NCBI GenBank assembly: GCA_963835065.1
Contig: CAWIEK010000020.1
Coordinates: forward strand, 1-32,855
Source: an uncultured Chthonomonadaceae bacterium
Lineage (GTDB): Bacteria; Armatimonadota; Chthonomonadetes; Chthonomonadales; Chthonomonadaceae
DNA length: 32,855 bases
Direction of reading: 5' to 3'
The position numbers and the translations under genes are program-made. Each line of letters opens with the position of its first letter. Position 1 is the first letter of the stretch. Shown piece after piece: positions 210-18,696 of the stretch. The notes under the pieces were generated by a model, which made no database searches, was not told where the DNA came from, and saw only the letters and a list, made by a program, of their open reading frames with translations.

Positions 210-1232
210 TTAGAAACCGAGGGACACGCTGAGAAGGGTTTCGCCGGGGCCATACGCGATGTTGAAATAGTGCCCTGCGCCCACGCCCAATGTCACGCGG
301 TTGCGGTACAGGCCGATGCGTCCCTGCACGTAGCGGAACGGGCTGTACTCCGCGCCCAGATTAAGCGCGGTATTGTTGCCGCCGATTTCGCCAATGTCGG
401 CGGCGAAAAGCAGCTTGCGGTTGCTGGTGCGGTACGCGGCTCCAACCGAAAGATTGGTCGGCATCACGTCCTGCCCGTTCATGCGCAGGTTAGGATGGAA
501 CACATCGCGCAGGGTCGCGCCCACAGAAATAGCGGGTGATACATGGTGCAGAACGCCCACATCCGCGCCAAACGCAAGGCTGGTGCGCCCGGTTGTCGTT
601 GTGACGGGCAGGGTGGCGTTGGTTCCATCGAAACGGACATTGATGCTTGTCGGCTGGTAATTGGTCAGCTTCAAATTAATGCCCGCTGAGGTGCGCGAAT
701 CAGTTTGTATGGCCGCGCTGGCAACGGTCTGGAACGCGATCACGGCATTGATGTTGGCCTGGCTGCCCGGTTCGGGAACCTGCTGCCCCTGAAAATTGAG
801 GTAGCGAAAGCCCACACCGCCCTGCGCATTGCGCGGAACCACCTGCCCGACCGCAAACGGCACAAACGACAGCGCGAAGCGGGGCGCGACAACCGCCGCA
901 TCTCCGCTTACATCCGCCTGCGTGATGCCGTTCCCCGCTCGCCGCGCAAACGCGATCTGCCCGGCGGTACTGGAGGGGAAGTGATTGAGCAATGTATCGG
1001 CGGAAAGCGGCCCGGTCAGGCGGGCGTTCAAATCCGGCAGGGCGGCATGAAAGTGGTGCAGTTGGGCAAGCCCCGCCGGGTTCCAGTAGGGCGCATACGC
1101 ATCATCGGCGACAGCGGTATACGCGCCGCCCATGCCCAATGCGCGAGCGCCCAATCCAAGCTGCGCAAAGGACGGCAGTGACAAACCAACCAGGCTCAAA
1201 GTAAGCAGGGAAAGCAAGACAAATCGGGACAT
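210..1232 (-). CDS. Outer-membrane beta-barrel protein (PorV/PorQ/TraF/FadL-like N-terminus)
   Basis: Signal peptide from ATG 1232 (MSRFVLLSLL...SFAQ), the motif GARALGMGGAYTAVADDAYAPYWNPAGLA, alternating beta-strands and a C-terminal Phe. Confidence 0.8.
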   Translation of the reverse strand: MSRFVLLSLLTLSLVGLSLPSFAQLGLGARALGMGGAYTAVADDAYAPYWNPAGLAQLHHFHAALPDLNARLTGPLSADTLLNHFPSSTAGQIAFARRAGNGITQADVSGDAAVVAPRFALSFVPFAVGQVVPRNAQGGVGFRYLNFQGQQVPEPGSQANINAVIAFQTVASAAIQTDSRTSAGINLKLTNYQPTSINVRFDGTNATLPVTTTTGRTSLAFGADVGVLHHVSPAISVGATLRDVFHPNLRMNGQDVMPTNLSVGAAYRTSNRKLLFAADIGEIGGNNTALNLGAEYSPFRYVQGRIGLYRNRVTLGVGAGHYFNIAYGPGETLLSVSLGF

Positions 1233-1371
1233 GACAACTCCTGAAGCGGCAAAGCAAAAGTAGCGAACCAAGCTCGTCCATGAGGTAGCGAACTACAACG
1301 TGGTTCAGAAACGGGGAGGAATGTAAATCAACATTCCATTATCGGCAGGTCAAATCAAAAACTGGAGTCAC

Positions 1372-1515
1372 TATTCACCACCAAGACACCAGGAACACCA
1401 AGAAAGACGAGAAGAAGGACGTTGTAAATTGCAGAAGATGTCAAGCACTTCGCGCGTTATGATCCTTTGTTGTTATCTGCTTTACTTGGTGTTCTTGGCG
1501 ACTTGGTGGTGAATA
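1372..1515. repeat. Palindromic MITE-like element, CACCAAG family, copy 1
   Basis: TATTCACCACCAAGACACCAGGAACACCAAG ... CTTGGTGTTCTTGGCGACTTGGTGGTGAATA; the same arms occur at 19856-20006. Confidence 0.85.
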
Positions 1516-1606
1516 ATCAAAAATTGGCGTTGTCTTTTCGTTTATTTCGCGTCTTTAGCGGTTCCGTCTCCCCTTCCCCTCTTCTCCTTTTCTCCTTTTC
1601 TTCCTT

Positions 1607-4412
1607 TCACTGTGGGTTGAGAGCCGCGCGCAGGGCGGCGTAGGGAGCGGTCACGGACGCGCAGTATTGGGGCAGGCGCGCGTACTGTTTTGCCGGATAC
1701 AGGCATTGCCACGGAGCGCCTGCCGCCTGCCGCGTTTGCAGGGATTGTACGAACTCGTCAAGCATCTGTTCGGCGGCGGGGCGATCCACGCGCATCAGGG
1801 CAGCGATGTACCAGCCGGCGGGAAAGCCCCAGTACGCGCCGTTCTGGTACGTATCGGGCGGCGTCGAAGTCTGCTCCCAATAGCCCCCGTACGGACCGGA
1901 CGGCAGCAAGGGGCGCACATGCCCTTCCACAACCGTTCCACCGGCCTGATACACAATCCGCAAGTGCTGCGCGACGGCAACCGCGGTGCGCGTCCGTACC
2001 GCGCCAATCGCAACCGCGTAGGCCGACGCCCAAATGTCGTCTTTATGTCCCTGCCCCGTTGCCGAGTACAGCATCCCCACGTCCTTGCCGTTTTCCTTGT
2101 CCAATGGGTGATAAAAGGCGTTGGCGATGGCAAGGGGCAGATCGCGGGCAATCTGGTCGTATTTGGCGATCTGAGTCCGGTCATTCAGGGCGGCAAACAG
2201 CAGCACCAAATCTTTGGCCGCGCGCCACCGCAGCACGGAAGGCATCAGGCACGCCCCGGTTTTGTGAACCGTGTCGGCAAATCCCCAATCCACGCGCCAG
2301 TCTGTCGGCCCGTTCCCTACCACGACCAGGCCGTTCGCGTCCACTTCCACGCTGTCAAAAGCGCGGGTGCAGGCTTCGGCAACGGTTTCGGTTCCCCACG
2401 CCGTTTTCACCTGTGACCCAAGCAGCGCCCCGTTCCCGGTCTGGCGCAGGTGTTCGCGTACCATTTGTATAAAGTAGAACGGATTGTCGGCGGGCGGCAG
2501 AAAGCCGAACTTGCCATCCCCCTGATCGTAGCCCGCGCCCGCCCCCGGAAACCAGCAGGGTTCACCCGACAGCGTTAAATGGTCGGGGATGCTGTACGGC
2601 GGCACGGACAGGCCGTTGGCAAGTTTTAGGCCGTCCGGCCCCGCCTGCGTGGAAGCCACCAGCCGCGCCCACCCCGCAACCTCGTCAGCAGCGATCAAGT
2701 CCGGCCCAAGCATCAGCGCGGCGTCTCGAATAGAAAACACTTTTTGCGTTTGACCGCCATCGGGCAGGCGAACGGTGAGGATGTTGGGTGTTGGGTATTG
2801 GGTGTTGGGAGACGAACTTTTTGTTGATGGCTTCTCTGCTGTTCCCTGTTCCCTGTCACCTGTCACCTGTGCCCTGTTCCCTGTTCCCTCTCTTCCTGCA
2901 ATCGTAGTGCGGGCGGCGGCGAGGGTTGTTTTGGCGATGGCAAGCAATTTTTCGCTTTGGGCGGTCAGATGGTCGGCTTGCTGCGCGGTTTGCTGGACGG
3001 TTTTGTTCACGTCCAGAGTGGGCGGGCGAACCACCGTAATGTTGTTGACCGCCGCGTTGAGCAGGGCGGAATTGGCGGTGTTGAGCGCCAGCAAAATTTG
3101 CGGCGTTCGCGTGGGTGACAGCGAAAAGGGGGCTTGCGTCGGGTTGTTCGGGTCGTACTCCCAGGACCAGAGCGCGACAAGCGGCGCATCCGATGTTTGG
3201 GCGCGGCGCAAATAGTCCAGCAGCCAGGGCGCGGCCTGCTCCTTGCCTCCCGCGACCACTTTCTGCCCGACTTCCCCGATGAACAACGGTTTTTTCAGGC
3301 TGTCCGCCGCGTACTGCGTCCAGGGCATCCGCAGGGCGTGAAGGCCGTCCTCGACAAGCCACGATGCCCCCCCGTTGTAAGTGGCCGTATCGGGCTTATC
3401 GGGCGGGTATTGGTGGGCACTGAGAATGTCCACGTTCGGCGGATTAAAAAAACCGAAAATTTGCTGGTACTCCGCGAACGTGTCCGAAGTCCAGTCGGGA
3501 GTGAAATCAAGCGCGTGGCCTGCGTTGCGTCCCGCCAGCATCGCTTCGCGCAGATGCAGGGCGGACGGGCGCATATCGCCGTTGCCGGACGTGACATAAT
3601 GCTTTTTGTCAAGGGAATGGATTCGGGCGGCAATCTGCGCGAGAAACGCCCGCACCTGATCTGACGTAACCACATCACCGGGAGCGCGATTGTTGACTTT
3701 CGTAGACAAATCAGCTTCCAGATTGTACTCGTTGCCGATTTCCCAGAACAACACGCGCGGGTCGTTCTTGTAACGAGTCACGATGGCGGTCACATACTCC
3801 AGCGCAAGATCGTTGGAGCGCGTACCGGGCGTCAGATATTGCGACAGGGATTCAGGCTTGCCGTTTGCGCGTCCCACATACTCGCGCAGCATGTTGACGT
3901 TGAACAGCAGTGAGGGTACGATTGCCATGTCCGCGTTGTCCGCCGCTTCCAGCATCCGGTCGAACGCATTAAGCCAGCCCTCCCGATTGGTTTCAAACGC
4001 GCCGAAACCTGCCGCGCTCCACGTCGTGCCCCAGCAGCGCGCCAGATGGACGCCCGCCCCTCGCGCATCCGCCAACGCCTGCACTCCGCTCGCGTCCTCG
4101 CCGCGTAAAAACCGCTCGAACAAATCCGGGATATTGACTCCGACATTGCGATACGCCACTTTGCCCAGGTTCAGGCGCGTCTTGACCTTCAATTTTCAGG
4201 AAAAAGCGCGGCGTCTGCTTGTCCAGCGTCGGTGACTTCCCCGCCTGCGTTCGCGCGGTTGTGCCTTTTGGCGCGGTTGTTTCTTTTTGTCTCGCTGAAT
4301 TCGCCGGCTTTTCGGGCGCGGTCTGAGCCAGAGCCAGAGCGTTTGCGGCCTGCCAAAATAGAATAAGGAAAAAGCAGAGGGAAAAGCGAATGATTGGCGT
4401 ATGTTTGTTCAT
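1607..4412 (-). CDS. Secreted GH5-like glycoside hydrolase fused to a C-terminal six-hairpin glycosidase-like domain; frameshift near 4185
   Basis: A signal peptide ORF from 4412 (…FFLKIEG) joins ORF 1607-4192 (RLNLGKVAYRNVGVN) through a one-base shift. Clan GH-A motifs WEIGNE and FIGEVG are present, with YQNGAYW in the C-terminal domain. Confidence 0.75.
2782..2887. repeat. In-frame heptamer tandem repeats inside the GH5 gene
   Basis: (TRTTGGG)x4 at 2782-2809 and CTGTTCC-like x7 at 2839-2887. Confidence 0.85.
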
Positions 4413-4450
4413 GCGAAACAGGCTATCCTTTTATGTATAGGTTTGCGGGT

Positions 4451-4588
4451 TGGGCGATGGGCTGAACCCCTTCGCTGTATGGCGTTCCGCCGACTGTCCT
4501 TCGGACAGAACCCTCTTTTAGAAAACAAGCGTGTCCGAAGGACACTGGGCCGCAGGCCATACAGCGAAGGGGTTCAGCCCGTCGCCCA
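4451..4588. repeat. REPIN/MITE-like nested palindrome
   Basis: 33-bp outer arms TGGGCGATGGGCTGAACCCCTTCGCTGTATGGC with one mismatch, plus inner arms TGTCCTTCGGACA/TGTCCGAAGGACA. Confidence 0.85.
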
Positions 4589-4639
4589 CTACGCTAAACT
4601 TGTGATCAAGTGTTGTATTTATCTGTAAGAGAAACGCCC

Positions 4640-7273
4640 ATGCAGAAAATCTACTCTTCTTTATCGTGTACGCTGCTATTTACGCTGCTTTGGAGCGGGC
4701 TGTTTGCAGGGCTTGCTTTTGCCGCGCCGCCTGCGCCCGTGACGGCAACGGAAGACGCCGCCCGCATTGTTATGGACAACGGCATCGCGCGACTGGAAGT
4801 TTCCAAAGCGAAGGGCAATATCGTGTCGGTTCGGTATCGGCACGACGGGCAGGATACGGAAATCAGCAAAACCATGTACACGTCGGCCAGCGCCGGTCCG
4901 ACGGATCGCAACGCGCCCCAGCCGCCGCGCGGCTCCATCCAAACGCAGCAAAATCGCCCGCCCCATCTGGCGCAAAATACGCCCGAAATCGCGGACGTTC
5001 AAATAGAAAGCGGCCCCAATCCGACGTTCCCCTTCCATACGGAAACGCACTACCTTCTAATGCGCGGTCAGAGCGGATTTTACGCCTATCAGATTTACTC
5101 GCGTACCGCCGACTTACCGGCAGCCACGATTGGCGAGGCGCGGTTCGTTATCAAAGGCTTGCCCGGCACGAGCGTTTTCACCGACCATGTTGTGGATGCG
5201 CAGCGTATGGGGCCGGTCAACACATCGCCCGTCGCGCAGCAGGTTTCGGACGCGACGTTTCTGCTTCAGGACGGCTCCATTTACACCAAGTACGACAATT
5301 CGGCGTTCATGGCCGACCACTATGTTCATGGCATGACAGGGCACGGCATCGGGCTGTGGATGCTCAACGCCAGCAACGAGTTCGTCAACGGCGGGCCGCT
5401 GAAACAGGAATTGACGGTACACGCCGACAACACCCTCCTCAACATGCTGCAAGGGGCGCACTTCGGTTCGGGCGTCCTGAACTTCAAGGCGGGCGAAACA
5501 TGGACGAAATTTTACGGCCCGTGTTTCGTGTATCTGAACAGTGGCGCGACCACGCAGGCGATGTATCAGGATGCGCTGCGCCGCGTGGAAACCGAACGCG
5601 CCCAATGGCCGTATGCGTGGGTCAGCCATCCCGCGTATCCCATTCTGCGCGGCAGCGTGACGGGGCAAATCAAACTCACGGACGGCACAAGCGCAAGGGG
5701 CGCGTGGATCGTTCTCGCGGCGGCAAGCGATTCGCCGCAAACGGATTGGACGCAGCAGGGCAAGGGCTATGAGTTCTGGACGCGGGCGGGTGCGGACGGC
5801 AGATTCACCATTCCCAAAGTGCGCCCCGGCGCGTACACGCTGTACGCCTGCGGCGCAAACCAGTTCGCGCAGTTCCACAAGGATGGGGTTACCATTCAGG
5901 CCGGGGAAACGAACACTCTGGGCGTCTTGGATTGGCAGCCCGTCACGCATGGCAAAACGCTGTGGCAGATCGGCGTGGCAGACCGGGGCACAACCGAGTT
6001 CCATGACGGCAACAATGTCCGTCACTTCGCCAACTACCTGCGCTACGCCAGAGATTTTCCCGGCGACGTGACGTTCACCATCGGCAAAAGCCGCGAAGAC
6101 CGGGACTGGAATTACGCGCAATGGACGTGGTACAGCAAGCGGCCTTACTGGGCGATTGATTTCGACCTGCCGCAATCGCAAACAGGCACAGCCACACTCA
6201 CGTTCGGCATTGCCGCTTCCAATCCTGCGCATGGCGGGTCGAACACCATTCAAATCAAAGTCAACGGGCGCGATGCGGGAACCTTGCATCTTGCCAAATC
6301 CGGCCCCGCCGCGTATCGCAGCGGCGGGCAGGACAGCCTGTACCGCGTGGAAACCGTCACGTTCGACGCCGCGTTGCTCAAAGCCGGAGCCAATGAAATC
6401 ACGCTCGGCCACGCCGACGCGCAGCCGCTTCCCACCCCGGAGGAGCAGAAAAAAGGGCAAGTAGGCGCGGTAATGTACGACGCGATCCGGCTGGAAGTGG
6501 AACCGAAGGAAGGCGAAGCAAAGACCACGCAGGAAAGCGGAAATTTGCCCGCGAATACGCGAAGATTGCCGACCCTGTTCCTCATCGGCGATTCGACAGT
6601 GAAGAACCATACGAAAGGCTTGGCGGGGTGGGGCGATTCGATTGGAGCGTGGTTCGATACGTCGCGCCTGCGCGTGGAAAACGAGGCGTTGGGCGGGCGC
6701 AGCAGCCGGACGTTTCTCACGGAAGGCTTGTGGGACAAGGTTCTCGCCAAAATGCAGCCGGGAGATTTCGTGCTGATGCAGTTCGGGCACAACGACGGCG
6801 GCAGCATCGCCACAAGTTACCGCGCCTCCCTGAAAGGCAACGGCGAGGAAACGCAGGAAGCGACGGACGCCAAAACCGGCAAGCAAGAAACCGTCCATTC
6901 CTATGGCTGGTACATGCGCCGCTATATCGCCGACGCGAAACGCAAGGGCGCAACCCCCATTGTGCTTTCCCTCGTGCCCCGCAACATCTGGAAACCGGAT
7001 AATACGATAGGCCGCGCGTCCAATGATTACGGCAAGTGGGCGCAGGAAGCCGCCCTGTCCGAAAACGTCGCCTTTGTAGACTTGAACGACATTGTAGCCA
7101 AGCATTACGAGGCGCTCGGCCCGGACAAAGTGAAGGCAATGTACTTTCCCGGCGACCACACCCATACCAATCAAGCGGGCGCGGAACTTAACGCGGCTTC
7201 GGTTGTGGAAGGCTTACGAATGCTCAAGAACTGTCCTTTAGCCCCATACCTGCGGGAGAAACTCCAGCATTAG
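4640..7273 (+). CDS. Rhamnogalacturonan endolyase (PL4) fused to a GDSL rhamnogalacturonan acetylesterase (CE12)
   Basis: Signal peptide; PL4-like motifs TKYD, NEFVNGGPLKQEL, GAHFG, WQIG and YDAIRLE; C-terminal SGNH blocks LIGDSTV, GRSSRTF, QFGHND and DHTH. Confidence 0.85.
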   Translation: MQKIYSSLSCTLLFTLLWSGLFAGLAFAAPPAPVTATEDAARIVMDNGIARLEVSKAKGNIVSVRYRHDGQDTEISKTMYTSASAGPTDRNAPQPPRGSIQTQQNRPPHLAQNTPEIADVQIESGPNPTFPFHTETHYLLMRGQSGFYAYQIYSRTADLPAATIGEARFVIKGLPGTSVFTDHVVDAQRMGPVNTSPVAQQVSDATFLLQDGSIYTKYDNSAFMADHYVHGMTGHGIGLWMLNASNEFVNGGPLKQELTVHADNTLLNMLQGAHFGSGVLNFKAGETWTKFYGPCFVYLNSGATTQAMYQDALRRVETERAQWPYAWVSHPAYPILRGSVTGQIKLTDGTSARGAWIVLAAASDSPQTDWTQQGKGYEFWTRAGADGRFTIPKVRPGAYTLYACGANQFAQFHKDGVTIQAGETNTLGVLDWQPVTHGKTLWQIGVADRGTTEFHDGNNVRHFANYLRYARDFPGDVTFTIGKSREDRDWNYAQWTWYSKRPYWAIDFDLPQSQTGTATLTFGIAASNPAHGGSNTIQIKVNGRDAGTLHLAKSGPAAYRSGGQDSLYRVETVTFDAALLKAGANEITLGHADAQPLPTPEEQKKGQVGAVMYDAIRLEVEPKEGEAKTTQESGNLPANTRRLPTLFLIGDSTVKNHTKGLAGWGDSIGAWFDTSRLRVENEALGGRSSRTFLTEGLWDKVLAKMQPGDFVLMQFGHNDGGSIATSYRASLKGNGEETQEATDAKTGKQETVHSYGWYMRRYIADAKRKGATPIVLSLVPRNIWKPDNTIGRASNDYGKWAQEAALSENVAFVDLNDIVAKHYEALGPDKVKAMYFPGDHTHTNQAGAELNAASVVEGLRMLKNCPLAPYLREKLQH

Positions 7274-7351
7274 AGCCTATCCCGATAGGCTTGGTATCCG
7301 CGTCCGCAGGACGCTTGCACTTTCCTGCCGGGTATTTTCAATGCCCGGCCT
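7273..7351 (-). repeat. Partial copy of the GAGCCTATCC/CCGGG-ATTGAAAAT-CCCGG MITE family
   Basis: Reverse-complement match to about 17222-17300; it supplies part of the TAG stop of the PL4 gene. Confidence 0.8.
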
Positions 7352-7364
7352 GCTGGTTCTTCCA

Positions 7365-7688
7365 TTAGTTGGTGGGGCGAAGTTTGTAGGTCAGATGATT
7401 CAGGCTGGTGAGCAGTTCCGGCAACTTGGAGGAAAGATGGCCTTCCTGCTCCCCCGACGGCAGCGCCTTCCATTGAATGACAAGCGATTCCAGCATCCTG
7501 TCGGGAACCTGCTTTTGCTGCTCCATGGGAAGCCGCTGCAGCAGCGTCCGGCAGCGTTTCAAAAAGTGCTGTTCGCACAGGCGCTTGCCCGGTTCCAGCG
7601 GCAGCGCGGTAGCAAGGGGCTGCCAGCTTCCCTCCTGCTCCGAGGCGGAAGGCAGGTAAAAATCATAGTGAGCGGGTGTCGTGTCCAT
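7365..7688 (-). CDS. Hypothetical protein (107 aa)
   Basis: ATG start with AGGAG upstream; helical composition; no recognised motif. Confidence 0.55.
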   Translation of the reverse strand: MDTTPAHYDFYLPSASEQEGSWQPLATALPLEPGKRLCEQHFLKRCRTLLQRLPMEQQKQVPDRMLESLVIQWKALPSGEQEGHLSSKLPELLTSLNHLTYKLRPTN

Positions 7689-7868
7689 AAATATAGTGTT
7701 CTCCTGCTTTGTATACGCGCGCAGCAGGCAGAAGGTTGTTAATAAGTAACCACAAACGTGTGGCTTCGGTTCTATAACCGGGTAAGCGGCAATTCATCTC
7801 AACTCCGAAAAAGGCCAAAGTCCAGATAATAGGGAAGTCATGATGGAGCATCGTGGAGGAAATATGTG

Positions 7869-8183
7869 ATGGCGCAAGTAACATCCAGTACGACTACACC
7901 GCGTCAAGTTCCTCAAGACTATGACCGGAACAGTTCTGTTGTTATGGAGAACGTTGGCAAGGTAACAGAGATGAACCGGGAGTTCGATATGGCCTTCTGG
8001 CAGGCACAGGATGCTTCCGCGCGGTTCCGGGCGGCTTGGGAGCAGGTTGAGTTTTATTACTCCCTGAAGGGTTTACCGAAAGATGAACTCCGACTTCAGA
8101 GATATGTTGAAGCGCTTCGAGAAAAATCAGGTATAGGTATCTTACCGCAGGAGTTGAAAAATGGCACAAGCAAAAATTTTTGA
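7869..8183 (+). CDS. Small hypothetical protein of the type often found before nucleotidyltransferases (antitoxin-like)
   Basis: GGAGGA RBS; motif FDMAFWQAQ..ARFRAAWE...LRLQR. The family assignment is from recall and unverified. Confidence 0.55.
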   Translation: MAQVTSSTTTPRQVPQDYDRNSSVVMENVGKVTEMNREFDMAFWQAQDASARFRAAWEQVEFYYSLKGLPKDELRLQRYVEALREKSGIGILPQELKNGTSKNF

Positions 8184-8427
8184 AGGAACCTGGGAAGAGT
8201 TGACGGCTCATGCGAACGAGTTTCGGGGTTATCCGAAGTTGACACTGATTGCTCCTGAACCAAGTGCGCAGGCTGCAAATCATTATCAGGCCGAGATTAC
8301 CCCCGAACAGCGAATACGGATGCTGGACGCCCTCGCCGAGCGTAACCGCAACCTTCCGGCCCTCCCTGAAGAAGCATTTGACCGTGAGAACCTGTACGCT
8401 GACGAAGAGGAGCAAGGCGTGTGCTGA
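8161..8427 (+). CDS. Putative antitoxin of a VapBC-type pair
   Basis: AGGAG RBS; 88-aa acidic protein ending in AFDRENLY; overlaps the start of the PIN gene. Confidence 0.65.
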   Translation: MAQAKIFEGTWEELTAHANEFRGYPKLTLIAPEPSAQAANHYQAEITPEQRIRMLDALAERNRNLPALPEEAFDRENLYADEEEQGVC

Positions 8428-8645
8428 TAGCTTATCTTGCCGATACCAATGTCGCTACCCGGCGCGTCCTTACGCAAGACCCCGCTCATGGTGAGATTAA
8501 GCGCGCTGTAGATACACTGCTTCTGCGCGGCGAAACGGTTGTTATCAAAAATGCCCTTCTTCTGAAACTTAATCATCTCGATACCTGTCTACTAACAAAG
8601 AGAAACATCTTTGTTGAGGGATGTGCAGGAGAGCAAGGAAGTTGA
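8421..8645 (+). pseudogene. vapC: Truncated PIN-domain (VapC) toxin
   Basis: N-terminal YLADTNV motif and first helix up to GETVVI (~8546); the remaining PIN acidic residues are absent and AT-richer DNA follows. Confidence 0.7.
8564..8591 (+). promoter_or_regulatory. Putative ECF sigma (sigmaE-like) promoter for the HNH operon
   Basis: GAAACTT-N16-GTCTA about 30 bp before ATG 8621. Confidence 0.5.
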
Positions 8646-9638
8646 ATAGGAACAGAGAACGGAAAAAGCGGTTATACGATACATTCGCCGCAAATCTGGC
8701 GCTATATTGGGGCGACAGCAACGACCGATTTATTTGTCCGCTTTGCATGCGGCTTTTTGATCGTGATTCCATTGATCATCTCGATCTAGCGCATATTGTT
8801 CCCAATGCTCTCGGAGGTAGTAAAGTTACGCTAACCTGTAAGCAGTGTAATAATCGTATTGGTGAAGAGATTGAGTGTCATGAAGTAGAAGCGGCCCGTA
8901 TGGAACAAGCCTTCAAGAGCAAGGAGAGCAAGCCCATGCTAGGACGTATTCGGCTTCGCTATAATGGGCAAGAAAGTGGAAGCGTTGGCATTACCATGAA
9001 CGGTGTCATGGGTGATACTATGCCCGAGCTCTACGTAAAACCCGTTGATAAAATGTCTGATCCCGCTGAAATACAAAGAATTCATCAGATGCTCGAGCAG
9101 GCGGCGAAGAACGGCGGAGATTGGGGAATAGAACTTGAATGGCGCAACCGTGTTGACCCACACAGGGCACAACTCACGTATCTGCACATCGCTTATCTAT
9201 ACCTGTTTCACCAGTTCGGTTACGAGTGGACGCTCGACCCCTGTACTGTCCTGATACGGGAGCAATTTCAGCGGCACGGATGAGGAACTTATCAACGTCC
9301 GTCTATTAAAGGCAACTCCTGATCAAGAACACCCGCAAACGTGGGGAGTAAACATCATTTACGCTCCTGAAGAGGCACTTGGATTGTTGGTCACAGTTCC
9401 TCCTATGCAACATCTGGGAGCATGGGCAACCGTTTGGATGCCGCTATTCGGATGCAGTTACAATCCGCCAGCGACGTTTGCAGGCTCGTTTTCACTAACT
9501 TCACTTGCAGATTTACATTCGATGTTAAACGAATCTGATGCCAGGCTCAGAGGGCATCGTGTAATTACGGATGTAATCCGTCGAAAAGCGCCTGATTTGT
9601 TTGCCCGTCTGCAAAGTACGCAATCAGCGAGAACATGA
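8621..9638 (+). CDS. HNH endonuclease with a long C-terminal extension; frameshift near 9276
   Basis: CPLC...HIVPNALGG...TCKQCNN. Removing one base at ~9276 gives QRPDEELINV… and an open frame through ORF 9384-9638. Confidence 0.75.
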
Positions 9639-9656
9639 CTTGGAACGGAGGGTAAA

Positions 9657-10808
9657 GTGGGACCGATAATCATCTTAGACAAGTCAGTGCTGCAATCTTT
9701 ATCTTTTGAGGAGATAAAATTCCTACGCCGTCACTACCTTGTTAATATTGTGCCTGTCCTCGTAATTGAAATTCTTGGAAACCTCAAGAAGTATGCCGAC
9801 GATGAAGCGCGTTCACAGGATATAGTAAAACAGCACGCAGACAAATTCAGTCCACTAGATTCTGTGGTAAATGGAAGCTACCAAGTTCTTGCGACAGCTT
9901 CCTTGTTAGGTGCTAAATTCGAGATGGACGGGCGACCCGTTGTAACAGGGGCTATTTCGTTTACTGATTCAAATGGCGACAGAGGAGTAGTGGTAGATGA
10001 ACGCCCTGAAGAGGAAGCCTTACGAAGGTGGCGGAGGGTCAGTTTACAGAAGCCGAGAAAACTCTTGCTCAACGTTGGCGGGATGTGAACTCGTAGCCTT
10101 GATCTAAAGGGTTTCCGAACCGAACTGTTGAAGGCGAATACGGATATTCCAAAGGTAAAGACCCTTGATGAGTTGAAAGTACAAGTTGACAATCTCCTCA
10201 GCGCGGAAAGTTCGCAATTGTTCTATTTGCAGTGGCTAATTGCTCGTCTTAACCTCCCGTTCCAACGTGCCACTATAGTGGCACGTTGGAATATAGGCCG
10301 GTTTACTTCCTTGCGTCACTTCGCTCCCTACGCTTTTCACTGTCTGCGGGTAGAAACCGCGTTCATGCTCGGTTTGATGCATGGAGTAATGAGCGGGATG
10401 ATTGCTGCACGTCCAACCAACAGAGTAGACTTGGAATATTTATTCTACCTTCCCTTCTGCCATGTATTTTCATCAGGCGATAATTTCCAAGGTCCTTTTT
10501 GTAAATTATTCTTGGCGGACTACCAACAATTCATTCCTGCAAGTGACCTCAAGACTGATCTTCACAATATAGCTACAGCATGGAAGGCTCTGACTGAAGA
10601 TGAGCAGAAGGCGCAGCGAAGAGAATACAGTTGCTATCCACCTGTGAACGCAACCTCCTTCACTCACCAAATGTGGTTGAAGCATATGAAGCCGTGGCGT
10701 CCAGGCATACATGATGTACAAATCAGCCCGGAACAGGAGCGAGTCATGTTAGAGCGGGCGCGAGCTGCCCAAGCAGCACTAAAAGGCAAAAGAGATAAGA
10801 CTACTTAG
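9657..10808 (+). CDS. Hypothetical protein with PIN-like motifs; apparently one gene with two compensating indels (~10034 and ~10088)
   Basis: GGAGG RBS with GTG start. ORFs 9657-10088 and 10128-10808 share a frame, and the alternative frame GQFTEAEKTLAQRWRDV bridges them. Motifs IILDKSVL and DLEYLFYLPFCHVFSSGD. Confidence 0.7.
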
Positions 10809-10834
10809 GGGCTGTGGTTTTTATCTTCCTGAAC

Positions 10835-10858
10835 GTAGGGGCGTTGCTTGCTGCGCCC
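10835..10858 (+). repeat. GTAG-type REP
   Basis: GTAGGGGCGTTGCTTGCTGCGCCC; reverse complement of the units at 23604-23716. Confidence 0.8.
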
Positions 10859-11008
10859 TTTTGCGCATTGCGCCCGCCGGGAAGAGAATAGATGTACAGC
10901 CCCAGGCAAGCGCCCCTCCCCGTTCCTCACACGATGCCAACAGCAACCATCCAGCGCAACTCCCGCAAAAATAAACAGAAAAAAAGAGCCAAACAACCCG
11001 AAAACAGC

Positions 11009-11036
11009 GAACCTTTTGCTCCGTTCCTCCTGTCTA
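11009..11036 (+). promoter_or_regulatory. Putative ECF promoter upstream of repeated element copy 1 and the macroglobulin gene
   Basis: GAACCTT…GTCTA (AAC-N19-GTCT), followed by ACAAGTGTCTACTA, which is shared with copy 2. Confidence 0.5.
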
Positions 11037-11121
11037 AATAGTACAAGTGTCTACTAACCAGACACAAAGGCTGAACGTTCGTAGTTCCTATCAACTATCA
11101 ACTATCAACTACTTACTCAGG

Positions 11122-11271
11122 AAAGGAGGTACAGGCCCATGTCCCACCCCTCCCGTTCGCCCTGACGCTTTCGAGGCCACGACGCCTCTCTCCTACAATT
11201 TGACACAACGAGACATCGGGCTGGAAGCGCTGCATTGCCAAGATTTCGACGATGACTCTACATATCCTTTT
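11122..11271 (+). ncRNA. Unassigned structured RNA / 8-codon uORF element, copy 1
   Basis: Ungapped match to 23285-23435 (-), with 9 mismatches over ~133 nt from the ATG. AAAGGAGG SD; ATG 11139 to TGA 11165 (MSHPSRSP). Confidence 0.55.
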
Positions 11272-11388
11272 TTCTATAGGCAGGTACTTTCAGTAGGCCG
11301 CGCTTGTGCCTCAGTAACCATCTTTGCGCGGTATCCGTCTAAACATCAACATTCACCCCGATTACATTGTTTAGAGGAATACCACGCC

Positions 11389-14300
11389 ATGCGACGTTTA
11401 CGACCTTCTTTCTATTCTCTGCTGCCCGCGTTCGGTATAACGACGGTGTTTGCCGGACTGTTTGCCACCTCTGCGCAGGCGCAAAACGCAAGGCGCGTGT
11501 TTGCGTTTCGGCGGGACAATACGCCTTCCACTTTTAACCGCAAGGATTTTGACGTTTCGCCGCTGGAAACGCGCGTGTTGGGACAGCGAACGTGGCTGCG
11601 GGGCGGGCCGGCTTCGCTGCGTATCCTTGTGGGCAACCATCTTACGGGCAAATCCGTGCCCGCGTCCGTGTCGCTTGGATTGGCGAAGATGGAAAACGGC
11701 AAGCCGGACGCCAACAGCCTGCCCCTGTACGCAGGGCAGACCAACGCGCTCGGCACAATGGACGCGCAGTTTCACGCGCCCAAAGTCGCGCCCGGTCCGT
11801 ATCAACTCACCATCAGCGTCAAGTCTGCGCTTGGCGAGGACACCATTACGCAGCCGATACAGATTGAAGAGTCCATGCAGTTGATGTTGACGGCGGACAA
11901 GCCCCTGTATCAGCCGGGACAGACGATGCACCTCCGCGCCCTCGCGCTGGATATGGCGACGCGGGAAGCGCTTGCCGATCAGCCGATTACGTTTGAAGTG
12001 GAGGATGCGCGGGGCAACAAGGTGTTCAAGAAACATCAAACGCTGTCGCGCTACGGTGTCGCGTCCGCCGATTTCATTCTGGCCGATGAAGTGAATATGG
12101 GAGCGTTTACCCTTCGCGCTATTTTGCCGACCGGGGAAACCGAAAAGAAGGTGCGGGTGGAGCGCTACGTCCTGCCCAAGTACAAAATCGCCATCACGAC
12201 GGACAAGCCGTACTATCTGCCCGGCGAAGAGGTGAAGGGAACGGTCAAGGCGACGTACTTTTTCGGCAAGCCGGTGGGGGATGCGCAGGTCACGGTTGCC
12301 ATCAATACCTTCGATGTCGGCATGACCAAACTGGCGGAACTGAAAGACAAGACCGACCCGATTGGCGTGTACACCTTCCGCTATACCCTGCCCACTTCGT
12401 TTGTCGGGCAGCCGTTCGCGCAGGGCAAGGCGCAGGTTGAGTTTGCCGCCACCATCAAGGACAAGGCCGACCACAAGCAGGAAGCGCATCAAAGCGTACC
12501 CGTTGTCAAAGAGCCGGTTTCGGTTGTCGTCGTGCCGGAACATCGCGTGCTGGTCCCCAACGTGGAAAACCGGGTGTACATCGCGGCGGCTACGCCCGAC
12601 GGGACGCCGCTCCAAAAGTGCCGCGTGTTCGTGTACCGGGGCAAGCCGCAGCCGCTTCATGGCGCGAGGGATCAGCGGGGCTATGACCTGCAAACCGACG
12701 AGTTGGGGCTGGCGACGTTTACATTCCGACGCCTCGCCGGACGAGAAAACCGGTGTCGAGTGGACGATGGAAGTGACGGACAAGGCGGGGCATACGGGCG
12801 TGGGAACCGTAAGCCTGCAAAACGCGGGCGGGCAGGACGGCCTGATTTTGCGCTCCGATAAAACCATCGCCAAAGTGGGCGAACGCCTGAATTTGTCCGC
12901 GCTGTCGTCCGTCAAGGGCGGAACCGTTTACTTCGATGTGATCCGCAACAAGCAGACGATTGTGACGCGGGCGGAAAACGCGAACGGCGGCCAGGCGAAT
13001 CTTCTGCTTCCCCTCACGCACGATATGGTGGGAACGCTGCAAATCCGCGCCTACAAAATCCTGCCCGACGAGAACATCCTCCGCGATTCGCGGACGCTGA
13101 TCGTCACGCCCGCCGATGATTTGAATATCCACGTCACGGCGGACAAAGCGCAGTACAAACCGGGCGGGGAAGCCGTACTGAAGTTTGCCGTGCAGGACGC
13201 GCAAAAGCATCCCGTACAGGCGGCAATCGGGCTTGCGGTTGTGGATGAAAGCGTGTTCGCTCTTTCGGAATTGCAGCCGGGGCTTGAGCGCGTTATCTTC
13301 ACGCTGGAAAAAGAGTTGATGGAGCCGAAGTACGAACTGCACGGCCTGACGCCTTCCAGTCTGATGCAGCCCAACCCGGTTCAATTTCAGCGCGAGGATG
13401 AGCGACAGCGCGCCGCTGCCCTGATTCTGGCTGCCGCGCCCGAACCCGCTAACTTCGATATTCGCGTGGATACGTTCGCGCAAAAATGGGCGAAAGTGGC
13501 CGTAAAAACCATTCAGTACATGATGGAAGCCAACCGCAAAATCGTCAACGCCGCGCAAAAGTACAAAGCCGATACCCACACTTCACTGACGGCGGAAGAG
13601 GGCGCACCTTATCTGGTCAGCAAAGGCTACCTGCGGGAAAGCGACCTGCGCGATCCGTGGGGACATGCGTACAAAGTGAACATGATGGGCGGCAAGAACT
13701 TTGACAACAACTATTTCACTCTCAGCAGCGCGGGGCCGGACGGCAAGTGGAATACCCCGGACGATCTCGCCAACGTATCCATGTACGGCTGGAATGACGC
13801 TAATAGAACTCGTTCGCGCGGGAGGAGAGGCGCAGCGCAAGGCTTTCTCGACGGAATATCGCCACAGGATATTTTCGCGCTGGATTCGGACAACAGCCTG
13901 ATAGTGGAGGCATTGGAAAAAGAGATGCCGCAGGCGAACAGGGGATTGGGAGCAGGCGGCGGTTTTGGCGGCGGCAGAGTGTTCAATGCCCCGGGAGCAG
14001 GAGCGCCGAGGCCGCTGATGCTGATGGCGAAAGCCAAAATGGACGACGCCAAAAAAGACAAAACGGAAACGGTAACTGTCGGCGCAGGCGGCAGTGACGC
14101 GCCCCGCGTCCGCTCGTTCTTCCCCGAAACCATGTACTGGAACCCCGCCCTGATTACGGATGAGCAGGGAATCGCGCAACTCACGGTTCCGATGGCCGAC
14201 TCGATTACGACGTGGCGGTTGAGCCTGCTTGCCAATTCCACGCGGGGGCAGTTGGGCAGTACGACCACACCCCTGAAAGTGTTTCAGGACTTCTTTGTGG

Positions 14301-16207
14301 ACATTGACCTGCCGGTTTCGCTAACGCAGCATGACCGTGTGGACGTTCCGGTTGCCATTTACAACTATCTGGCTGCCCCACAGCAGGTAACATTGACCTT
14401 GAAGCAGGAGCCGTGGTTCGCGCTGCAAGGCAGGGCAAGCCAAACGGTTCAGGTGGCAGCCAATTCCATCAGCGTCGTATATTATCCGCTCACGGCGAAC
14501 GCTATCGGCCAGCATAGTTTGGAAGTGACGGCGAAAGGCAGTAAATTGTCGGACGCTATGCGCCGCGAAATCGCCGTCACGCCGGATGGCAGATTGCTGG
14601 AAACAACCATTAATGACCGTCTGGAAGGCCGGGCGGAAAAATCGGTCACGTTTGCCGCTAACAGTTTGGAGGGCGCGAGCAGTCTGTGGGTGAAACTGTA
14701 CCCCGGCGCGTTCAGTCAGGTCGTGGAGGGTCTGGACGGTGTGCTGCGGATGCCCAACGGCTGCTTCGAGCAGACAAGTTCCACCACGTACCCCAACCTG
14801 CTCGTGCTGGACTATCTGAAGAAAACCAAGCGCATCAACCCCGAACTGCAACTGAAAGCCGAAGGGTACGTCAACATCGGCTATCAGCGATTGGTTACGT
14901 TCGAGTGCAAGAATGGCGGCTTTTCGTGGTTCGGGAATGAGCCTGCCCATCAGGTGCTGACCGCGTATGGCCTGTTGGAATTCAGCGACATGGCGAAGGT
15001 GCATGACGTAGACCCGAACGTGATTGCCCGAACACAGCAATGGCTTGCGGGCAAACAGCAGGCGGACGGCTCGTGGGAAGAAAAAACGCAGGGCATCGCG
15101 GAAGGCATCATCAACCGGCAAACCGGCGCTCTGCGCACAACGGCGTACATCGCGTGGGCATTAGCGGAAAGCGGCTACACCGGCCCGCAGTTGACAACCG
15201 GCGCGGCGTATGTCAAAGCGCATTTAGAAGAAGCCAAAGACCCGTACACGCTGGCCGTCATTCTCAACCTGCTCACCAGACTGGAGCGCGACAGCGACAC
15301 AACTACCAAAGTCGCCAACGCCTTAATTGCGCTTGCGAAAACAGCGGACAAGGACGCCTACTGGCAGACCGACACGCAAACCTTTACCGGAGCAAAGGAA
15401 CGGGGCGCGGATTTGGAAACAACGGGACTGGCCGCTTACGGGCTGTGCAAGTGGGGCCATAATGCCGCATTTGCCAACAAAGTCCTGACGCATCTGGTGC
15501 AAAGCAAGGACAGTTTCGGGACGTGGGAATCCACGCAGGGAACCGTCTGGTCTATGAAATCCCTCCTGTTCGCCAGCCAGAACGGCGTCGGGAGCGGCAA
15601 GGGCAAAGTGACCATTCTCGCCAACGGACAAAAGGCAGGCTCGTTCGCAATCACGCCCGAAGACAGCGACGTGATGCGGCAAATCAGCCTCGCGGAACAT
15701 CTCAAAGCCGACGCCAACGCGATTACATTGGAATACGAGGGCGACGGGTCGCTTCTGTACCAGATCGTCGGCAGATGCTACGTGCCGTGGAGCCAAGCCG
15801 GACAGCCGCAGCCCGGACAGGAACCTATGTCCATCAAGGTCGCTTACGACAAAACCACTCTGGCGCAGGACGACACCGCAACCGTCACCGTCAGCATCCA
15901 CAACAACACAAACGCAGTGGCGGAAATGCCGCTTGTGGATGTGGGCGTACCGCCCGGTTTCACCGTGAACCCGGAAAAACTGGAAGAGGCGGTAACGGCG
16001 AAAACCATCAGCAAGTACACCGTCGCCGCCCGCCAGATCATCGTGTACATGGAAAAACTGGAACCGGGTCAGACCGTCACCCTGACCTACCAGATCAAGG
16101 CCAAGTACCCGATCAAAGCGCGAACGCCCCTGAGCAAAGTCTACCCCTACTACAACCCGGAAAAAGTCGCCGTGTCCGCCCCGCAGGACATTCTGGTACG
16201 GAAGTAG
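11389..16207 (+). CDS. Alpha-2-macroglobulin family protein (thioester); frameshift near 12727
   Basis: Signal peptide, MG-domain motifs DKPLYQPG and YVLPKY, VRSFFPETMYW, DSITTW, thioester GCFEQ and C-terminal YYNPE. The two ORFs join on removal of one base. Confidence 0.9.
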
Positions 16208-16232
16208 ACGCGGGGTTGAACATACCCGCAGT

Positions 16233-16355
16233 GCCGGGGATTGAAAATCCCCGGCAACACAAAACAAGCGTCCTTACGGACGCGAATTCTCCAAATCAAA
16301 ATTCCCGCGTCCGCAGGACGCTTGCACTTTCCTGCCGGGGATTTTCAATCCCCGG
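16233..16355. repeat. REPIN-like palindromic element (same family as 7273 and 17208)
   Basis: GCCGGGGATTGAAAATCCCCGGC ... GCCGGGGATTTTCAATCCCCGG with inner GCGTCC/GGACGC hairpins, between convergent genes. Confidence 0.85.
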
Positions 16356-17185
16356 AACCTTGTAAACCGTTCCCGTTCCCACGCATCAATTATTTGGCGG
16401 GAAAGGCTGAGGGGCGGGGGAAGCGGGGGCAGGTCGCGTACATCGAACCATGCGGCGTGATCCAGTTCTTCCTCGTCCAAGCGAATGTCGCCGCTCACGT
16501 AACGCGCCGTGAAGCCGACCATCAGTTGATGCGGGAAGGGCCAGGGCTGACTGCCTTCGTACACGATGTCCGTAACCTGGAACCCGACTTCTTCCTCCAC
16601 TTCGCGCCGAACGCACTCTTCCAGCGACTCGCCCGGCAGCACGAAACCGGCCAAAATGCTGTACCGCGTTCCCCATCCCGGCTTGTGCGCCAGCAATACC
16701 CTGTCCCCGCCGTCATGCACGAGGGCGAGGACGGCGGGGCTGACCTGCGGGTAACGGTCATGCCCACAGTTCGGACAATGGCGCATCCACTCCTGCCGCA
16801 TCAGTTCCGTCGCGCTTCCACATACCGGGCAAAATTGGCTGACGCGCTGCCAGTGCAGAATTTGCGCAGCGTAGCCTGCAATCTGCCATTCGGTTTCGCT
16901 TATTCGCCCGTACAGGCTGCGCAGATTGGCAGTTTGCCAGCCGTCGGGAAGCGGCATGTCTTCGGACACTTCGCAGGTTACATACGTCGTCTCCGCAACC
17001 CTGCCAAGCGTGAGAGGCGTAAACGCCGCAAGCGCCTGCCGGACAACAGCATTGTCCGGCAGGAGTTCCACGCCATCCCCGGCTGCCTGAACCAACACAT
17101 CGGAGCCGCGCAAGGGCAGCCAGCGTATCGGGCCGACAGGCAAATCCGACACATACACCCGTTCAAAATCGGGATACAAAGACAT
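16274..17185 (-). CDS. nudC: NAD(H) diphosphatase (Nudix)
   Basis: Zinc ribbon CPVCG…CPNCG, Nudix box GFVLPGESLEECVRREVEEEVG and the SQPWPFP signature. Confidence 0.93.
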   Translation of the reverse strand: MSLYPDFERVYVSDLPVGPIRWLPLRGSDVLVQAAGDGVELLPDNAVVRQALAAFTPLTLGRVAETTYVTCEVSEDMPLPDGWQTANLRSLYGRISETEWQIAGYAAQILHWQRVSQFCPVCGSATELMRQEWMRHCPNCGHDRYPQVSPAVLALVHDGGDRVLLAHKPGWGTRYSILAGFVLPGESLEECVRREVEEEVGFQVTDIVYEGSQPWPFPHQLMVGFTARYVSGDIRLDEEELDHAAWFDVRDLPPLPPPLSLSRQIIDAWERERFTRFRGLKIPGRKVQASCGRGNFDLENSRP

Positions 17186-17207
17186 ACGCGCTGTTCTTTC
17201 TGCCTTA

Positions 17208-17300
17208 GAGCCTATCCTCATAGGCCGGGCATTGAAAATACCCGGCAGGAAAAATCAAGCGTCCTGCGGACGCATATACCGCGCCTATTGGGATAGGCTC
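17208..17300. mobile_element. 93-bp MITE with terminal inverted repeats and a TTA direct repeat
   Basis: TTA-GAGCCTATCC…GGATAGGCTC-TTA, with an internal REP-like hairpin. Confidence 0.7.
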
Positions 17301-17373
17301 TTATGCGCAGGGGCCAGCCCGTCGGGCCAAGATGCGGTAACAATAGGGTTTTCTATGCCGGGTTACACGACAA

Positions 17374-18696
17374 TTACTTTCGGCGCTTCAAGCGGTCAAT
17401 CAGCACCGCGCCCAAAATCACTAATCCGAGTACCACTTTTTGGGTGTAGGGTTCTACGTTCATCAGGTTCATGCCGTTGCGGATCACGGCAATGATGAAC
17501 GCGCCGATGAGTGTGCCGAAAATATAGCCCTGCCCGCCCGACAGACTGGTTCCGCCGACAACGACTGCCGCAATCACATACAGTTCGTACATATTGCCGT
17601 AAGTGGGCGACCCGGCTTTCAATTGCGAAACGGTAATCACGCCGCCGATGCCCGCCATCAGGCCGGATACCAGATAGGCGAACAGCAGCGTTTTGCCGAC
17701 GCTGACGCCCGATAAGCGCGACGCTTCGGGGTTGCCGCCCACCGCGTATATCTGCCGCCCGATGCGCGAACGGGCCATCACGACATGCGCGACGATGTAA
17801 ATGAGCAGCATCAGCACGACCGTATTGGGGATACCGAACAGCCCCGTTCCCCGTCCGAGCCAGGTGAAGGAGGGGGAAATGTCGTACAGCGATTGCCCCT
17901 GCGTGATGATAAACGCCAGCCCGCTCGCCACCTGCATCATTGCCAGCGTAGCGATAAACGGCGGGATGCGAAAGCGGGTAATCATCAGGCCGGAAAACAC
18001 GCCCACCGCGCCGCTCAAAGCAATGGCGGTAAGGCTTGCCCCAAGCATGATACCGGCAGAAGCGTTCGCGCCCCCGCCCGCGTGGATCAGCCAGGCGGTT
18101 GCCACCGCAGACAGGGCGATTAAACTGCCGACGGACAAATCTATGCCACCCGTTAAAATCACCAGCGTCATGCCGACCGCGAGAATGGCGATCACGGCGA
18201 TCTGGTCAGCGATGTTGCGCAGGTTGCCGGGTGACAGAAACGTGGAGCGCTTGCCGCCTGTGGGGGAAATGATTTTTGTTTGCGCAAAGGCGGGGTATTG
18301 AGTTTTCAGGGCGTTCCAGACGGCCCAATCCCGCGCTTGAACCGTTGTGGCGACCGTATCGGGAACGTGTCCCGCAGCCGCCAGTTTTTCCAGTTCCTGC
18401 CGCGCGTCCGGCGGGTTGCCCGCAATGCGCGCGGCAACGCCTAAATGCTCCTGCGCGAAACGCTTTTCCAGCGCGTCGGCAAACTCTTTGTCGCTGTCTC
18501 CCGGCGTGACCACAATTACCACGCTTGCCGGACGGGGCTGTAATGCCAGAATATCCGTCGCCAGCGATTCGCCGCCCTCCTGCCCTACCGGAACTTCCAT
18601 ATGGTAGGTAGCGACGGCAAAAAAGCCGCACAAAACCAGCAGGACGCCCAGCATCCCATACGCCAGCAGAAATTGGCGCACATCCGCTTTTTTCAT
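17374..18696 (-). CDS. Sugar ABC transporter permease (RbsC-like) with an extra extracytoplasmic domain
   Basis: GGIDLSVGS, PPFIATLA, GGNPEASRLSG and VVVGGTSLSGG motifs; ~120-aa soluble insert after TM1. Confidence 0.9.
   Translation of the reverse strand: MKKADVRQFLLAYGMLGVLLVLCGFFAVATYHMEVPVGQEGGESLATDILALQPRPASVVIVVTPGDSDKEFADALEKRFAQEHLGVAARIAGNPPDARQELEKLAAAGHVPDTVATTVQARDWAVWNALKTQYPAFAQTKIISPTGGKRSTFLSPGNLRNIADQIAVIAILAVGMTLVILTGGIDLSVGSLIALSAVATAWLIHAGGGANASAGIMLGASLTAIALSGAVGVFSGLMITRFRIPPFIATLAMMQVASGLAFIITQGQSLYDISPSFTWLGRGTGLFGIPNTVVLMLLIYIVAHVVMARSRIGRQIYAVGGNPEASRLSGVSVGKTLLFAYLVSGLMAGIGGVITVSQLKAGSPTYGNMYELYVIAAVVVGGTSLSGGQGYIFGTLIGAFIIAVIRNGMNLMNVEPYTQKVVLGLVILGAVLIDRLKRRK

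What the first reader, a model, noticed from the sequence alone, without database searches (positions are those of the whole stretch)
8547..10808. AT-richer two-gene module (extended HNH nuclease plus PIN-like protein): candidate anti-phage system
Seen: two co-oriented genes 18 bp apart, visibly more AT-rich than their flanks, starting where a vapC gene breaks off and ending beside a REP. Gene 1 has a zinc-binding HNH domain plus ~250 unassigned residues. Gene 2 has IILDKSVL and DxxYxxYxPxCxxFxSxD motifs that resemble PIN ends separated by a large insert. Established: HNH and PIN nucleases are common defence effectors and cluster with TA loci. Inference: a DNase/RNase defence pair that I cannot match to a named system.
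Basis: partly seen in the sequence, partly recalled or inferred. Interest (0 to 1): 0.7.

Follow-up and report, generated by a model that had tools for sequence, protein, structure and literature searches.

The report
Stacked solo HNH and split-PIN nucleases
Two foreign-looking genes, a predicted DNA cutter and a predicted RNA cutter, sit side by side here, but their relatives turn up separately, so this is likely not one new two-gene defence system; the RNA cutter belongs to a large unnamed family that likely protects bacteria from viruses on its own.

Summary
There are two co-oriented genes 18 bp apart, 47% GC against 57%, starting where a vapC remnant breaks off (8547) and ending beside a REP-like hairpin. 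Three single-base indels are absent from independent contigs, so they are probably assembly errors. Gene 1 (331 aa) is an extended Zn-HNH nuclease. Gene 2 (383 aa) has a PIN fold split by a ~175-residue insert, with all four acidic catalytic positions conserved.

The two-gene system is not supported. No other locus held both genes (0 of 39, 0 of 12, 0 of 4), no other of 400 same-phylum genomes held both, and a 95%-identical relative keeps gene 1 without gene 2.

Gene 2's family is large (906 clusters) and is missing from Pfam, PADLOC and NCBIfam. It often lies beside defence genes (11 of 39 loci), five times inside type I restriction operons. It is built like the validated single-protein system DS-3 but shows no sequence homology to it. 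Best reading: two separate cassettes stacked at a variable site, gene 2 likely a stand-alone anti-phage RNase. The scan probably met this PIN family before on other DNA (e1-997183), with the same verdict.

The parts
7738..7738 (.). Left edge of a strain-variable site
   Evidence: Contig C44, a 99%-identical copy of window 1-7738, ends here. The run X2 contig leaves the window at 7737 and rejoins at 8548.
7866..8183 (+). Small orphan gene; its two paralogues overlap a downstream nucleotidyltransferase-like ORF (label recalled from its motif), which is missing here
   Evidence: tblastn 42-48% to C41 and C53; neighbouring frames
8161..8427 (+). Putative vapB-type antitoxin, intact
   Evidence: 58-77% identical to the gene directly upstream of vapC in 4 of 4 family loci checked
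8427..8547 (+). vapC remnant: about 40 of 145 codons, start codon decayed, cut at 8547
   Evidence: 56-83% identical to N-termini of intact genes; homologue is Pfam PIN, E 1e-10; the join is also in run X1
8642..9638 (+). Gene 1: extended Zn-binding HNH nuclease, 331 aa, one frame break at 9276 in this assembly
   Evidence: Pfam HNH_5 E 1.3e-7; 45% over 307 aa to intact P0055; family profile E 7e-132; break absent in X1 and X2
9657..10808 (+). Gene 2: split-PIN predicted ribonuclease, 383 aa, frame breaks at 10032 and 10088 in this assembly; acidic residues D8, E38, D258, D275
   Evidence: 45% over 379 aa to intact P0082; model of P0082 pLDDT 96 matches PIN folds; conservation; breaks absent in X1
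10835..10858 (+). GTAG-type REP-like hairpin at the right edge
   Evidence: 103 matches to the pattern in the genome

Best explanation
The stretch holds two low-GC genes whose relatives occur separately, so it is likely two independent single-gene cassettes stacked at a variable site, with gene 2 a predicted RNA-cutting PIN enzyme that likely defends against phage by itself and gene 1 a predicted HNH DNA-cutting enzyme of less certain role. Shown: the genes, the junction in vapC, strain variation at the site, and the lack of co-occurrence elsewhere. Predicted: gene 2's PIN core is assembled from an N-terminal part (about 1-71) and a C-terminal part (about 250-291) around a ~175-residue insert, bringing four acidic metal ligands together. 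Inferred by analogy with DS-3 and VapC: with no antitoxin gene, the insert or C-terminal helices would keep the enzyme quiet or act as sensor; infection would switch on cleavage of tRNA, rRNA or mRNA and arrest the cell before phage is made. My odds by step: not an obligate pair 0.88; gene 2 an active PIN nuclease 0.9; gene 2 anti-phage 0.65; gene 1 anti-phage 0.4.
For: No pairing: 0 of 39 genome loci and 0 of 4 viral loci of gene 2 hold a gene 1 relative. 0 of 12 metagenome loci of gene 1 hold gene 2. In 400 other same-phylum genomes, strong gene 1 hits are in 6 and strong gene 2 hits in 2, with no overlap. Only 1 of 39 gene 2 genomes has a family-level gene 1 hit anywhere, on another contig. 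Run X2 covers gene 1 in one contig at about 95% identity (23 synonymous and 11 non-synonymous codon changes among the 34 listed), diverges 12 bases into gene 2, and has no cover of gene 2. PIN fold: the best VIA hit is a PIN protein (1y82, Z 8.6, rmsd 3.6, 141 of 147 aligned over model residues 1-307); by their titles most of the next 38 rows are VapC or other PIN proteins. The Atlas gives VapC/PIN at TM 0.66-0.69 by target. D8 is kept in 147, E38 in 148, D255 in 150 and D272 in 148 of 150 rows, in the positions described for PIN active sites (PMC5499597, passages). Defence context: 26 of 146 nearest-neighbour proteins, in 11 of 39 loci, are clear PADLOC hits (type I and IIG RM, BREX/Ssp, AbiE, Uzume, PDC candidates), against 6 of 146 mostly generic-domain hits in control regions. 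Five genome loci and one viral contig place the gene between hsdS and hsdR. Precedent: DS-3, a one-protein split-PIN system that needs its catalytic residues (PMC13092281, passages).
Against: No activity or phage test exists. The model is of a 45%-identical homologue, not of this protein, and its best Z of 8.6 is modest; Foldseek on PDB found nothing. 28 of 39 gene 2 loci show no clear PADLOC neighbour among the nearest four genes. Five of the 11 positive loci are one related Bacteroidota RM cassette. The locus-level test is not significant (11 of 39 against 1 of 15, p 0.14; protein-level p 2.5e-4 overstates because kin are not independent), and the control comes from one genome. This locus has no known defence system nearby, only toxin-antitoxin remnants. 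Gene 1 relatives mostly sit among housekeeping genes. X2 retains the first four codons of gene 2, so the two genes were already adjacent in the ancestor of X2 and this genome. Gene 1 sampling is thin: five of the 12 metagenome loci have under 1.2 kb downstream, and many are closely related.
Confidence: 0.6

Rival explanations
1. Both genes are selfish or neutral mobile cargo (an orphan toxin-like RNase and a stray HNH nuclease) that gather at a permissive site with toxin-antitoxin debris and have no anti-phage role.
For: Most gene 2 loci (28 of 39) lack a clear defence neighbour and several lie by integrases, IS elements or conjugative genes. Gene 1 relatives sit among housekeeping genes. The site holds decayed TA genes here and a different PIN TA pair at the same lyase flank in a same-genus genome.
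Against: The catalytic residues are almost invariant across a family of over 900 clusters, with no conserved antitoxin neighbour. The gene is repeatedly embedded in type I RM operons, once beside a Piwi gene. DS-3 has the same design and is defensive.
Confidence: 0.22
2. One reading: a true two-gene defence system in which the HNH DNase and the PIN RNase depend on each other.
For: Co-oriented, 18 bp apart, same low GC. Both genes are covered in run X1, and X2 keeps the start of gene 2, so the adjacency is older than this strain.
Against: No co-occurrence in any other locus set or in 400 genomes. X2 keeps an intact gene 1 without gene 2.
Confidence: 0.08
3. The frame breaks are real in this strain and both genes are already dead, as the vapC beside them is.
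For: Three breaks in 2.2 kb; neighbours are decayed. X1 is a relative at about 96-99% identity, not shown to be the source strain.
Against: All three are single-base changes absent in X1. The flanking alpha-2-macroglobulin gene is also broken by one frame change, which fits a general indel error rate in the assembly.
Confidence: 0.1

Closest known systems
DS-3 (working id PIN8; E. coli WP_022645725.1, 340 aa), DefensePredictor, PMC13092281
   Same: Single protein, PIN domain split between N- and C-terminus (halves 1-75 and 276-327 in the paper's Table S8), no antitoxin, essential acidic residues at matching positions (D7 and E42 there, D8 and E38 here).
   Different: No sequence or profile similarity: hhalign probability 0.1%; family HMM 0.1 bits, within the shuffled range. 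The insert here is shorter (~175 against ~200 aa). About half of the relatives carry a C-terminal SEC-C zinc motif (92 of 194 fetched). DS-3 is validated; this family is not.
VapC-type PIN ribonucleases (VapBC toxin-antitoxin systems; PDB 1y82, 3zvk, 5sv2)
   Same: Same core fold and acidic active-site layout.
   Different: Three times longer, core interrupted by a large insert, no conserved antitoxin gene upstream.
RM-embedded defence genes (PrrC; PDC candidates of Payne et al., bioRxiv 10.1101/2024.01.29.577857, passages)
   Same: Gene 2 relatives sit between hsdS and hsdR in 5 genome loci and 1 viral contig, next to PDC-M04 and PDC-S66 candidates.
   Different: Gene 2 matches no PDC model. 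It has a PIN core, not the ABC-ATPase/HEPN build of PrrC (recalled). This copy is not in an RM operon.
HNH_5 (PF14279) zinc-binding HNH nucleases, e.g. Septu PtuB, McrA, Cap5 HNH domains
   Same: Two CxxC pairs with the His and Asn of the HNH site conserved; weak fold hits to Cap5, IscB, McrA and ZRANB3 HNH domains (Z 3.3-4.9).
   Different: About 250 extra residues (beta hairpin module and C-terminal barrel-like part) with no clear solved match; no ATPase or SAVED partner; PtuB scores only E 0.02.

Membership tests
PIN domain superfamily (gene 2) | Alpha/beta PIN core with strands S1-S5 and crossover helix | tested here: met
   Model of homologue P0082 (pLDDT 96); VIA best hit 1y82 Z 8.6, rmsd 3.6, 141 of 147 aligned; Atlas TM 0.66-0.69 by target
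PIN domain superfamily (gene 2) | At least four acidic residues: after S1, after S2, on H4, after S4 (PMC5499597) | tested here: met
   D8 147/150, E38 148/150, D255 150/150, D272 148/150; present in the window gene; positions fit the model's strands and helices. Spatial clustering not measured.
PIN domain superfamily (gene 2) | Metal-dependent nuclease activity | not testable with these tools
   Needs an assay
DS-3 | One protein with a split PIN domain and no antitoxin | tested here: met
   DS-3 description
DS-3 | Sequence homology to WP_022645725.1 | tested here: not met
   hhalign 0.1% against the single DS-3 sequence; HMM 0.1 bits, shuffles up to 3.8
DS-3 | Same fold of the inserted domain | not tested
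DS-3 | Phage protection | not testable with these tools
   Needs a phage challenge
VapBC type II toxin-antitoxin | Small cognate antitoxin gene upstream of a ~130-aa PIN toxin | tested here: not met
   No small neighbour family recurs across the 39 loci; protein is 383 aa
HNH_5 nucleases (gene 1) | Pfam PF14279 above cut-off, with CxxC / His / CxxC-Asn motif | tested here: met
   31.9 bits against 27.5; residues at least 90% conserved in 16 rows
Septu (PtuAB) and HEC-03 (ATPase + PIN) | Partner ABC ATPase gene | tested here: not met
   None in the window; none recurring beside gene 2 relatives
   0 of 39, 0 of 12, 0 of 4 loci; no overlap in 400 genomes
Named systems in PADLOC 2.0, Pfam, NCBIfam 20.0 | Profile match of either gene beyond HNH_5 and SEC-C | tested here: inconclusive
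   No match; DS-3 itself has no NCBIfam model, so these libraries miss recent systems; DefenseFinder was not available

The most novel reading that the evidence does not exclude
Gene 2 defines a widespread, undescribed family of self-silenced split-PIN ribonucleases that reached the DS-3 design independently. Its ~175-residue insert is a new phage sensor, and its members inside type I restriction operons act as guards that fire when phage disables the restriction enzyme.
Probability: 0.2. Interest if true: 0.68.

Novelty: new variant of a known kind. Interest (0 to 1): 0.4.

Why it matters
It removes a false two-gene system from the candidate list. It puts forward instead a large (906 clusters at 50% identity, many phyla), unannotated single-gene PIN family that is easy to test. 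If the family protects against phage, it would give a second, apparently unrelated case of a split, antitoxin-free PIN effector. Comparing its insert with DS-3's would show how such enzymes stay off and what turns them on.

Tried and rejected
Libraries: Pfam, PADLOC and NCBIfam on the pieces and on intact homologues gave only HNH_5 and SEC-C. PDB sequence search gave only SEC-C hits. Foldseek on PDB found nothing for either model; BFVD gave only weak HNH rows. No clear solved fold for the gene 1 extension; this does not show the fold is new.

Other collections: no gene 2 relative in the phage collection, one partial in plasmids. Two gene 1 relatives in plasmids, none in viral contigs.

DS-3 membership was rejected on sequence. 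A motif search of the paper's validated-protein table found no member of either family, but long cells there are cut at 400 characters.

Mobility signals: no flanking repeats or promoter/terminator excess. A clean empty site was not found. Same-genus G261 has another TA pair after the lyase. G406 has a transposase-like ORF before the macroglobulin gene, at a contig end. The apparent duplicate of ORF 7365-7688 is a contig overlap, not a mobile copy. Joints that skip 7350-10980 in runs X1 and X2 rest on common repeats and were not used.

Runs: no RNA holder listed. Runs X3 and X4 barely touch the stretch.

No complex prediction was run: the proteins here are broken and their intact relatives come from different hosts.

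Literature searches found no description of either family; the library lacks most subscription papers, and bioRxiv supplements were closed.

Full report
Observation. The window is a whole contig, C20, of an 8.0-Mb genome with 57% GC. Between a rhamnogalacturonan-lyase gene (Pfam) and an alpha-2-macroglobulin-like gene (label recalled) lie a small orphan gene, a putative vapB, a vapC remnant and the two genes in question. The stretch 8547-10808 has 47.0% GC, the lowest 2.26-kb stretch of the window, with GC3 0.39-0.49 against 0.72-0.73 in the flanks. Gene 1 runs 8642-9638 and gene 2 9657-10808, 18 bp apart. Read through with X at the breaks they give 331 and 383 residues without stops and score E 7e-132 and 5e-145 on their family profiles.

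Edges. DNA similarity to intact vapBC loci ends at 8547, and an intact homologue is a Pfam PIN protein. A contig of run X2 matches the window to 7737, has 145 other letters, and rejoins at 8548. Contig C44 of the same assembly is a 99%-identical copy of window 1-7738 and ends there. So 7738 onward is a strain-variable site, and 8547/8548 is a real junction. A GTAG-type hairpin with 103 pattern matches in the genome sits at 10835-10858.

Frame breaks. Run X1 (about 96-99% identical) covers both genes in five short contigs, none bridging the two genes, and lacks all three single-base indels; X2 also lacks the gene 1 indel. The macroglobulin gene is likewise broken once. Assembly error is the likely cause, but source reads were not seen.

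Gene 1. It matches HNH_5 above the cut-off. Intact relatives of 309-337 aa span both pieces. The two CxxC pairs, the His and the Asn are conserved. A model of homologue P0055 from 16 rows (pLDDT 87.6) gave only weak HNH matches (Cap5, IscB, McrA, ZRANB3; Z 3.3-4.9) and nothing clear for the extension. The Atlas places it among unnamed ~300-aa HNH clusters. Neighbours of its relatives are mostly housekeeping genes, with a few exceptions: a TIR gene, a DUF4365 gene and an IS element.

Gene 2. The family is large: 906 clusters at E up to 1e-30 and 1577 up to 1e-10 among 1.84 billion representatives. The 39 genome loci come from many lineages by their record titles, and there are 4 viral contigs. 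Of 194 fetched relatives, 92 carry a SEC-C-type motif; the window copy does not. No Pfam, PADLOC or NCBIfam model covers the core. A model of the closest intact homologue P0082 (45% over 379 aa; 150 rows, pLDDT 96, pTM 0.92) shows strands at 4-7, 28-31, 69-71, 267-270 and 288-291, with about 175 residues inserted after the third. Foldseek found nothing. The alignment against 48,161 chains put a PIN protein first (1y82, Z 8.6, rmsd 3.6, 141 of 147 residues over model range 1-307), followed mostly by VapC and other PIN proteins down to rank 39. The Atlas agrees. Four acidic residues are nearly invariant (147, 148, 150, 148 of 150), match the layout given for PIN active sites (PMC5499597, passages) and are present in the window copy.

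Do the two genes belong together? No other locus held both: 0 of 39 genome loci and 0 of 4 viral loci of gene 2, and 0 of 12 metagenome loci of gene 1, of which 7 have at least 1.2 kb downstream. Among 401 same-phylum genomes including this one, 13 match the gene 1 profile (6 others strongly, 6 weakly on the HNH motif only) and 4 match gene 2 (2 others strongly, 1 weakly); only this genome has both. Of the 39 gene 2 genomes, 3 match the gene 1 profile, 1 at family level, on a different contig and without gene 2 beside it. Run X2 carries gene 1 whole (23 synonymous and 11 non-synonymous codons among 34 listed changes), diverges after four codons of gene 2, and shows no cover of the rest. Against my reading, that remnant shows that the adjacency predates this strain; it is one contig with a 45-base loose end.

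Is gene 2 defensive? I scanned the two nearest ORFs on each side of the 39 loci with PADLOC (146 proteins; one enolase fragment of the 147 used was left out). 28 hit. I set aside two partial hits (a sigma factor and a half-length match), leaving 26 in 11 loci: type I and IIG RM, BREX/Ssp, AbiE, Uzume, PDC-S39, PDC-S66 and PDC-M04. A control of 146 of 163 ORFs from random regions of this genome gave 6 mostly generic-domain hits. Protein-level p is 2.5e-4, but locus-level p is 0.14 when only one of 15 control regions is counted as defence-like; five positives are one related cassette. In those five and in viral contig L112 the gene lies between hsdS and hsdR, in L112 next to a Piwi gene. Integrases, IS elements and conjugative genes are also common neighbours. 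This is moderate support, not proof.

Known relatives. DS-3 is a validated one-protein system with a split PIN domain and no antitoxin (bioRxiv 10.1101/2025.01.08.631726, passages and outline; PMC13092281, passages, part of the references, and rows of supplementary tables; its supplementary PDF and Table S1 could not be read). The DS-3 gene from an E. coli genome shows no similarity to the gene 2 family. So gene 2 likely works like DS-3 but is not shown to be a member. Payne et al. (10.1101/2024.01.29.577857, passages) show that genes embedded in defence operons are often defensive and list type I RM as a frequent host; their PIN system HEC-03 needs an ATPase that is absent here. Other papers were seen as search listings only. 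Eight searches found no description of either family.

Earlier scan notes. e1-997183 shares 3 of 99 words with the gene 2 homologue and reports a ~410-aa PIN-fold gene beside an HNH gene, judged to be stacked solo genes. The gene 1 homologue found no look-alike there, so its HNH is probably of another family; I could not check its sequence.

Verdict. What remains is a real, unannotated, widespread split-PIN family with moderate defence association, plus an unnamed extended HNH family. New variant of a known kind; interest 0.4.

Noticed in passing
window 10260-10291: A perfect 32-bp palindrome inside gene 2, at the spot where this assembly is one codon shorter than run X1 and its homologues; possibly a template-switch event or an assembly artefact.
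   Followed up: no
window 1-7738 and 16370-32853: These parts are duplicated at about 99% in contigs C44 and C8, so the window looks like a strain haplotype; only 7739-16369 (variable site plus macroglobulin gene) is unique.
   Followed up: partly
window 11389-16207: Alpha-2-macroglobulin-like gene broken by one frame change near 12720; an intact 1577-aa relative exists in G036.
   Followed up: partly
L112:1017-11102: Viral contig with hsdM, hsdS, two unknown genes, a gene 2 relative, a 764-aa Piwi protein, another unknown gene and hsdR in one run.
   Followed up: partly
P0173; P0001, P0003, P0015 and similar: Gene 2 relatives with long C-terminal additions: an 863-aa fusion without Pfam match and a ~565-aa Bacteroidota subgroup with an extra ~130-aa domain after SEC-C; candidate sensor swaps.
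   Followed up: no
L085:5098-9086 (G170): A distant gene 1 relative lies divergently beside a DUF4365 gene and a 481-aa ORF that resembles a short Argonaute from recall only (no Pfam match).
   Followed up: no
L080:4521-5185 (G261): A same-genus genome has a different PIN toxin-antitoxin pair just after the same lyase gene, so this flank may attract such modules repeatedly.
   Followed up: partly
L012:10257-11189 and L024:9682-10587: Related ATP-grasp (RimK/MvdD-like) genes lie just downstream of gene 2 relatives in two unrelated genomes.
   Followed up: no
L113:1-11000: A gene 2 relative in a filamentous-phage-like contig among IS fragments.
   Followed up: no
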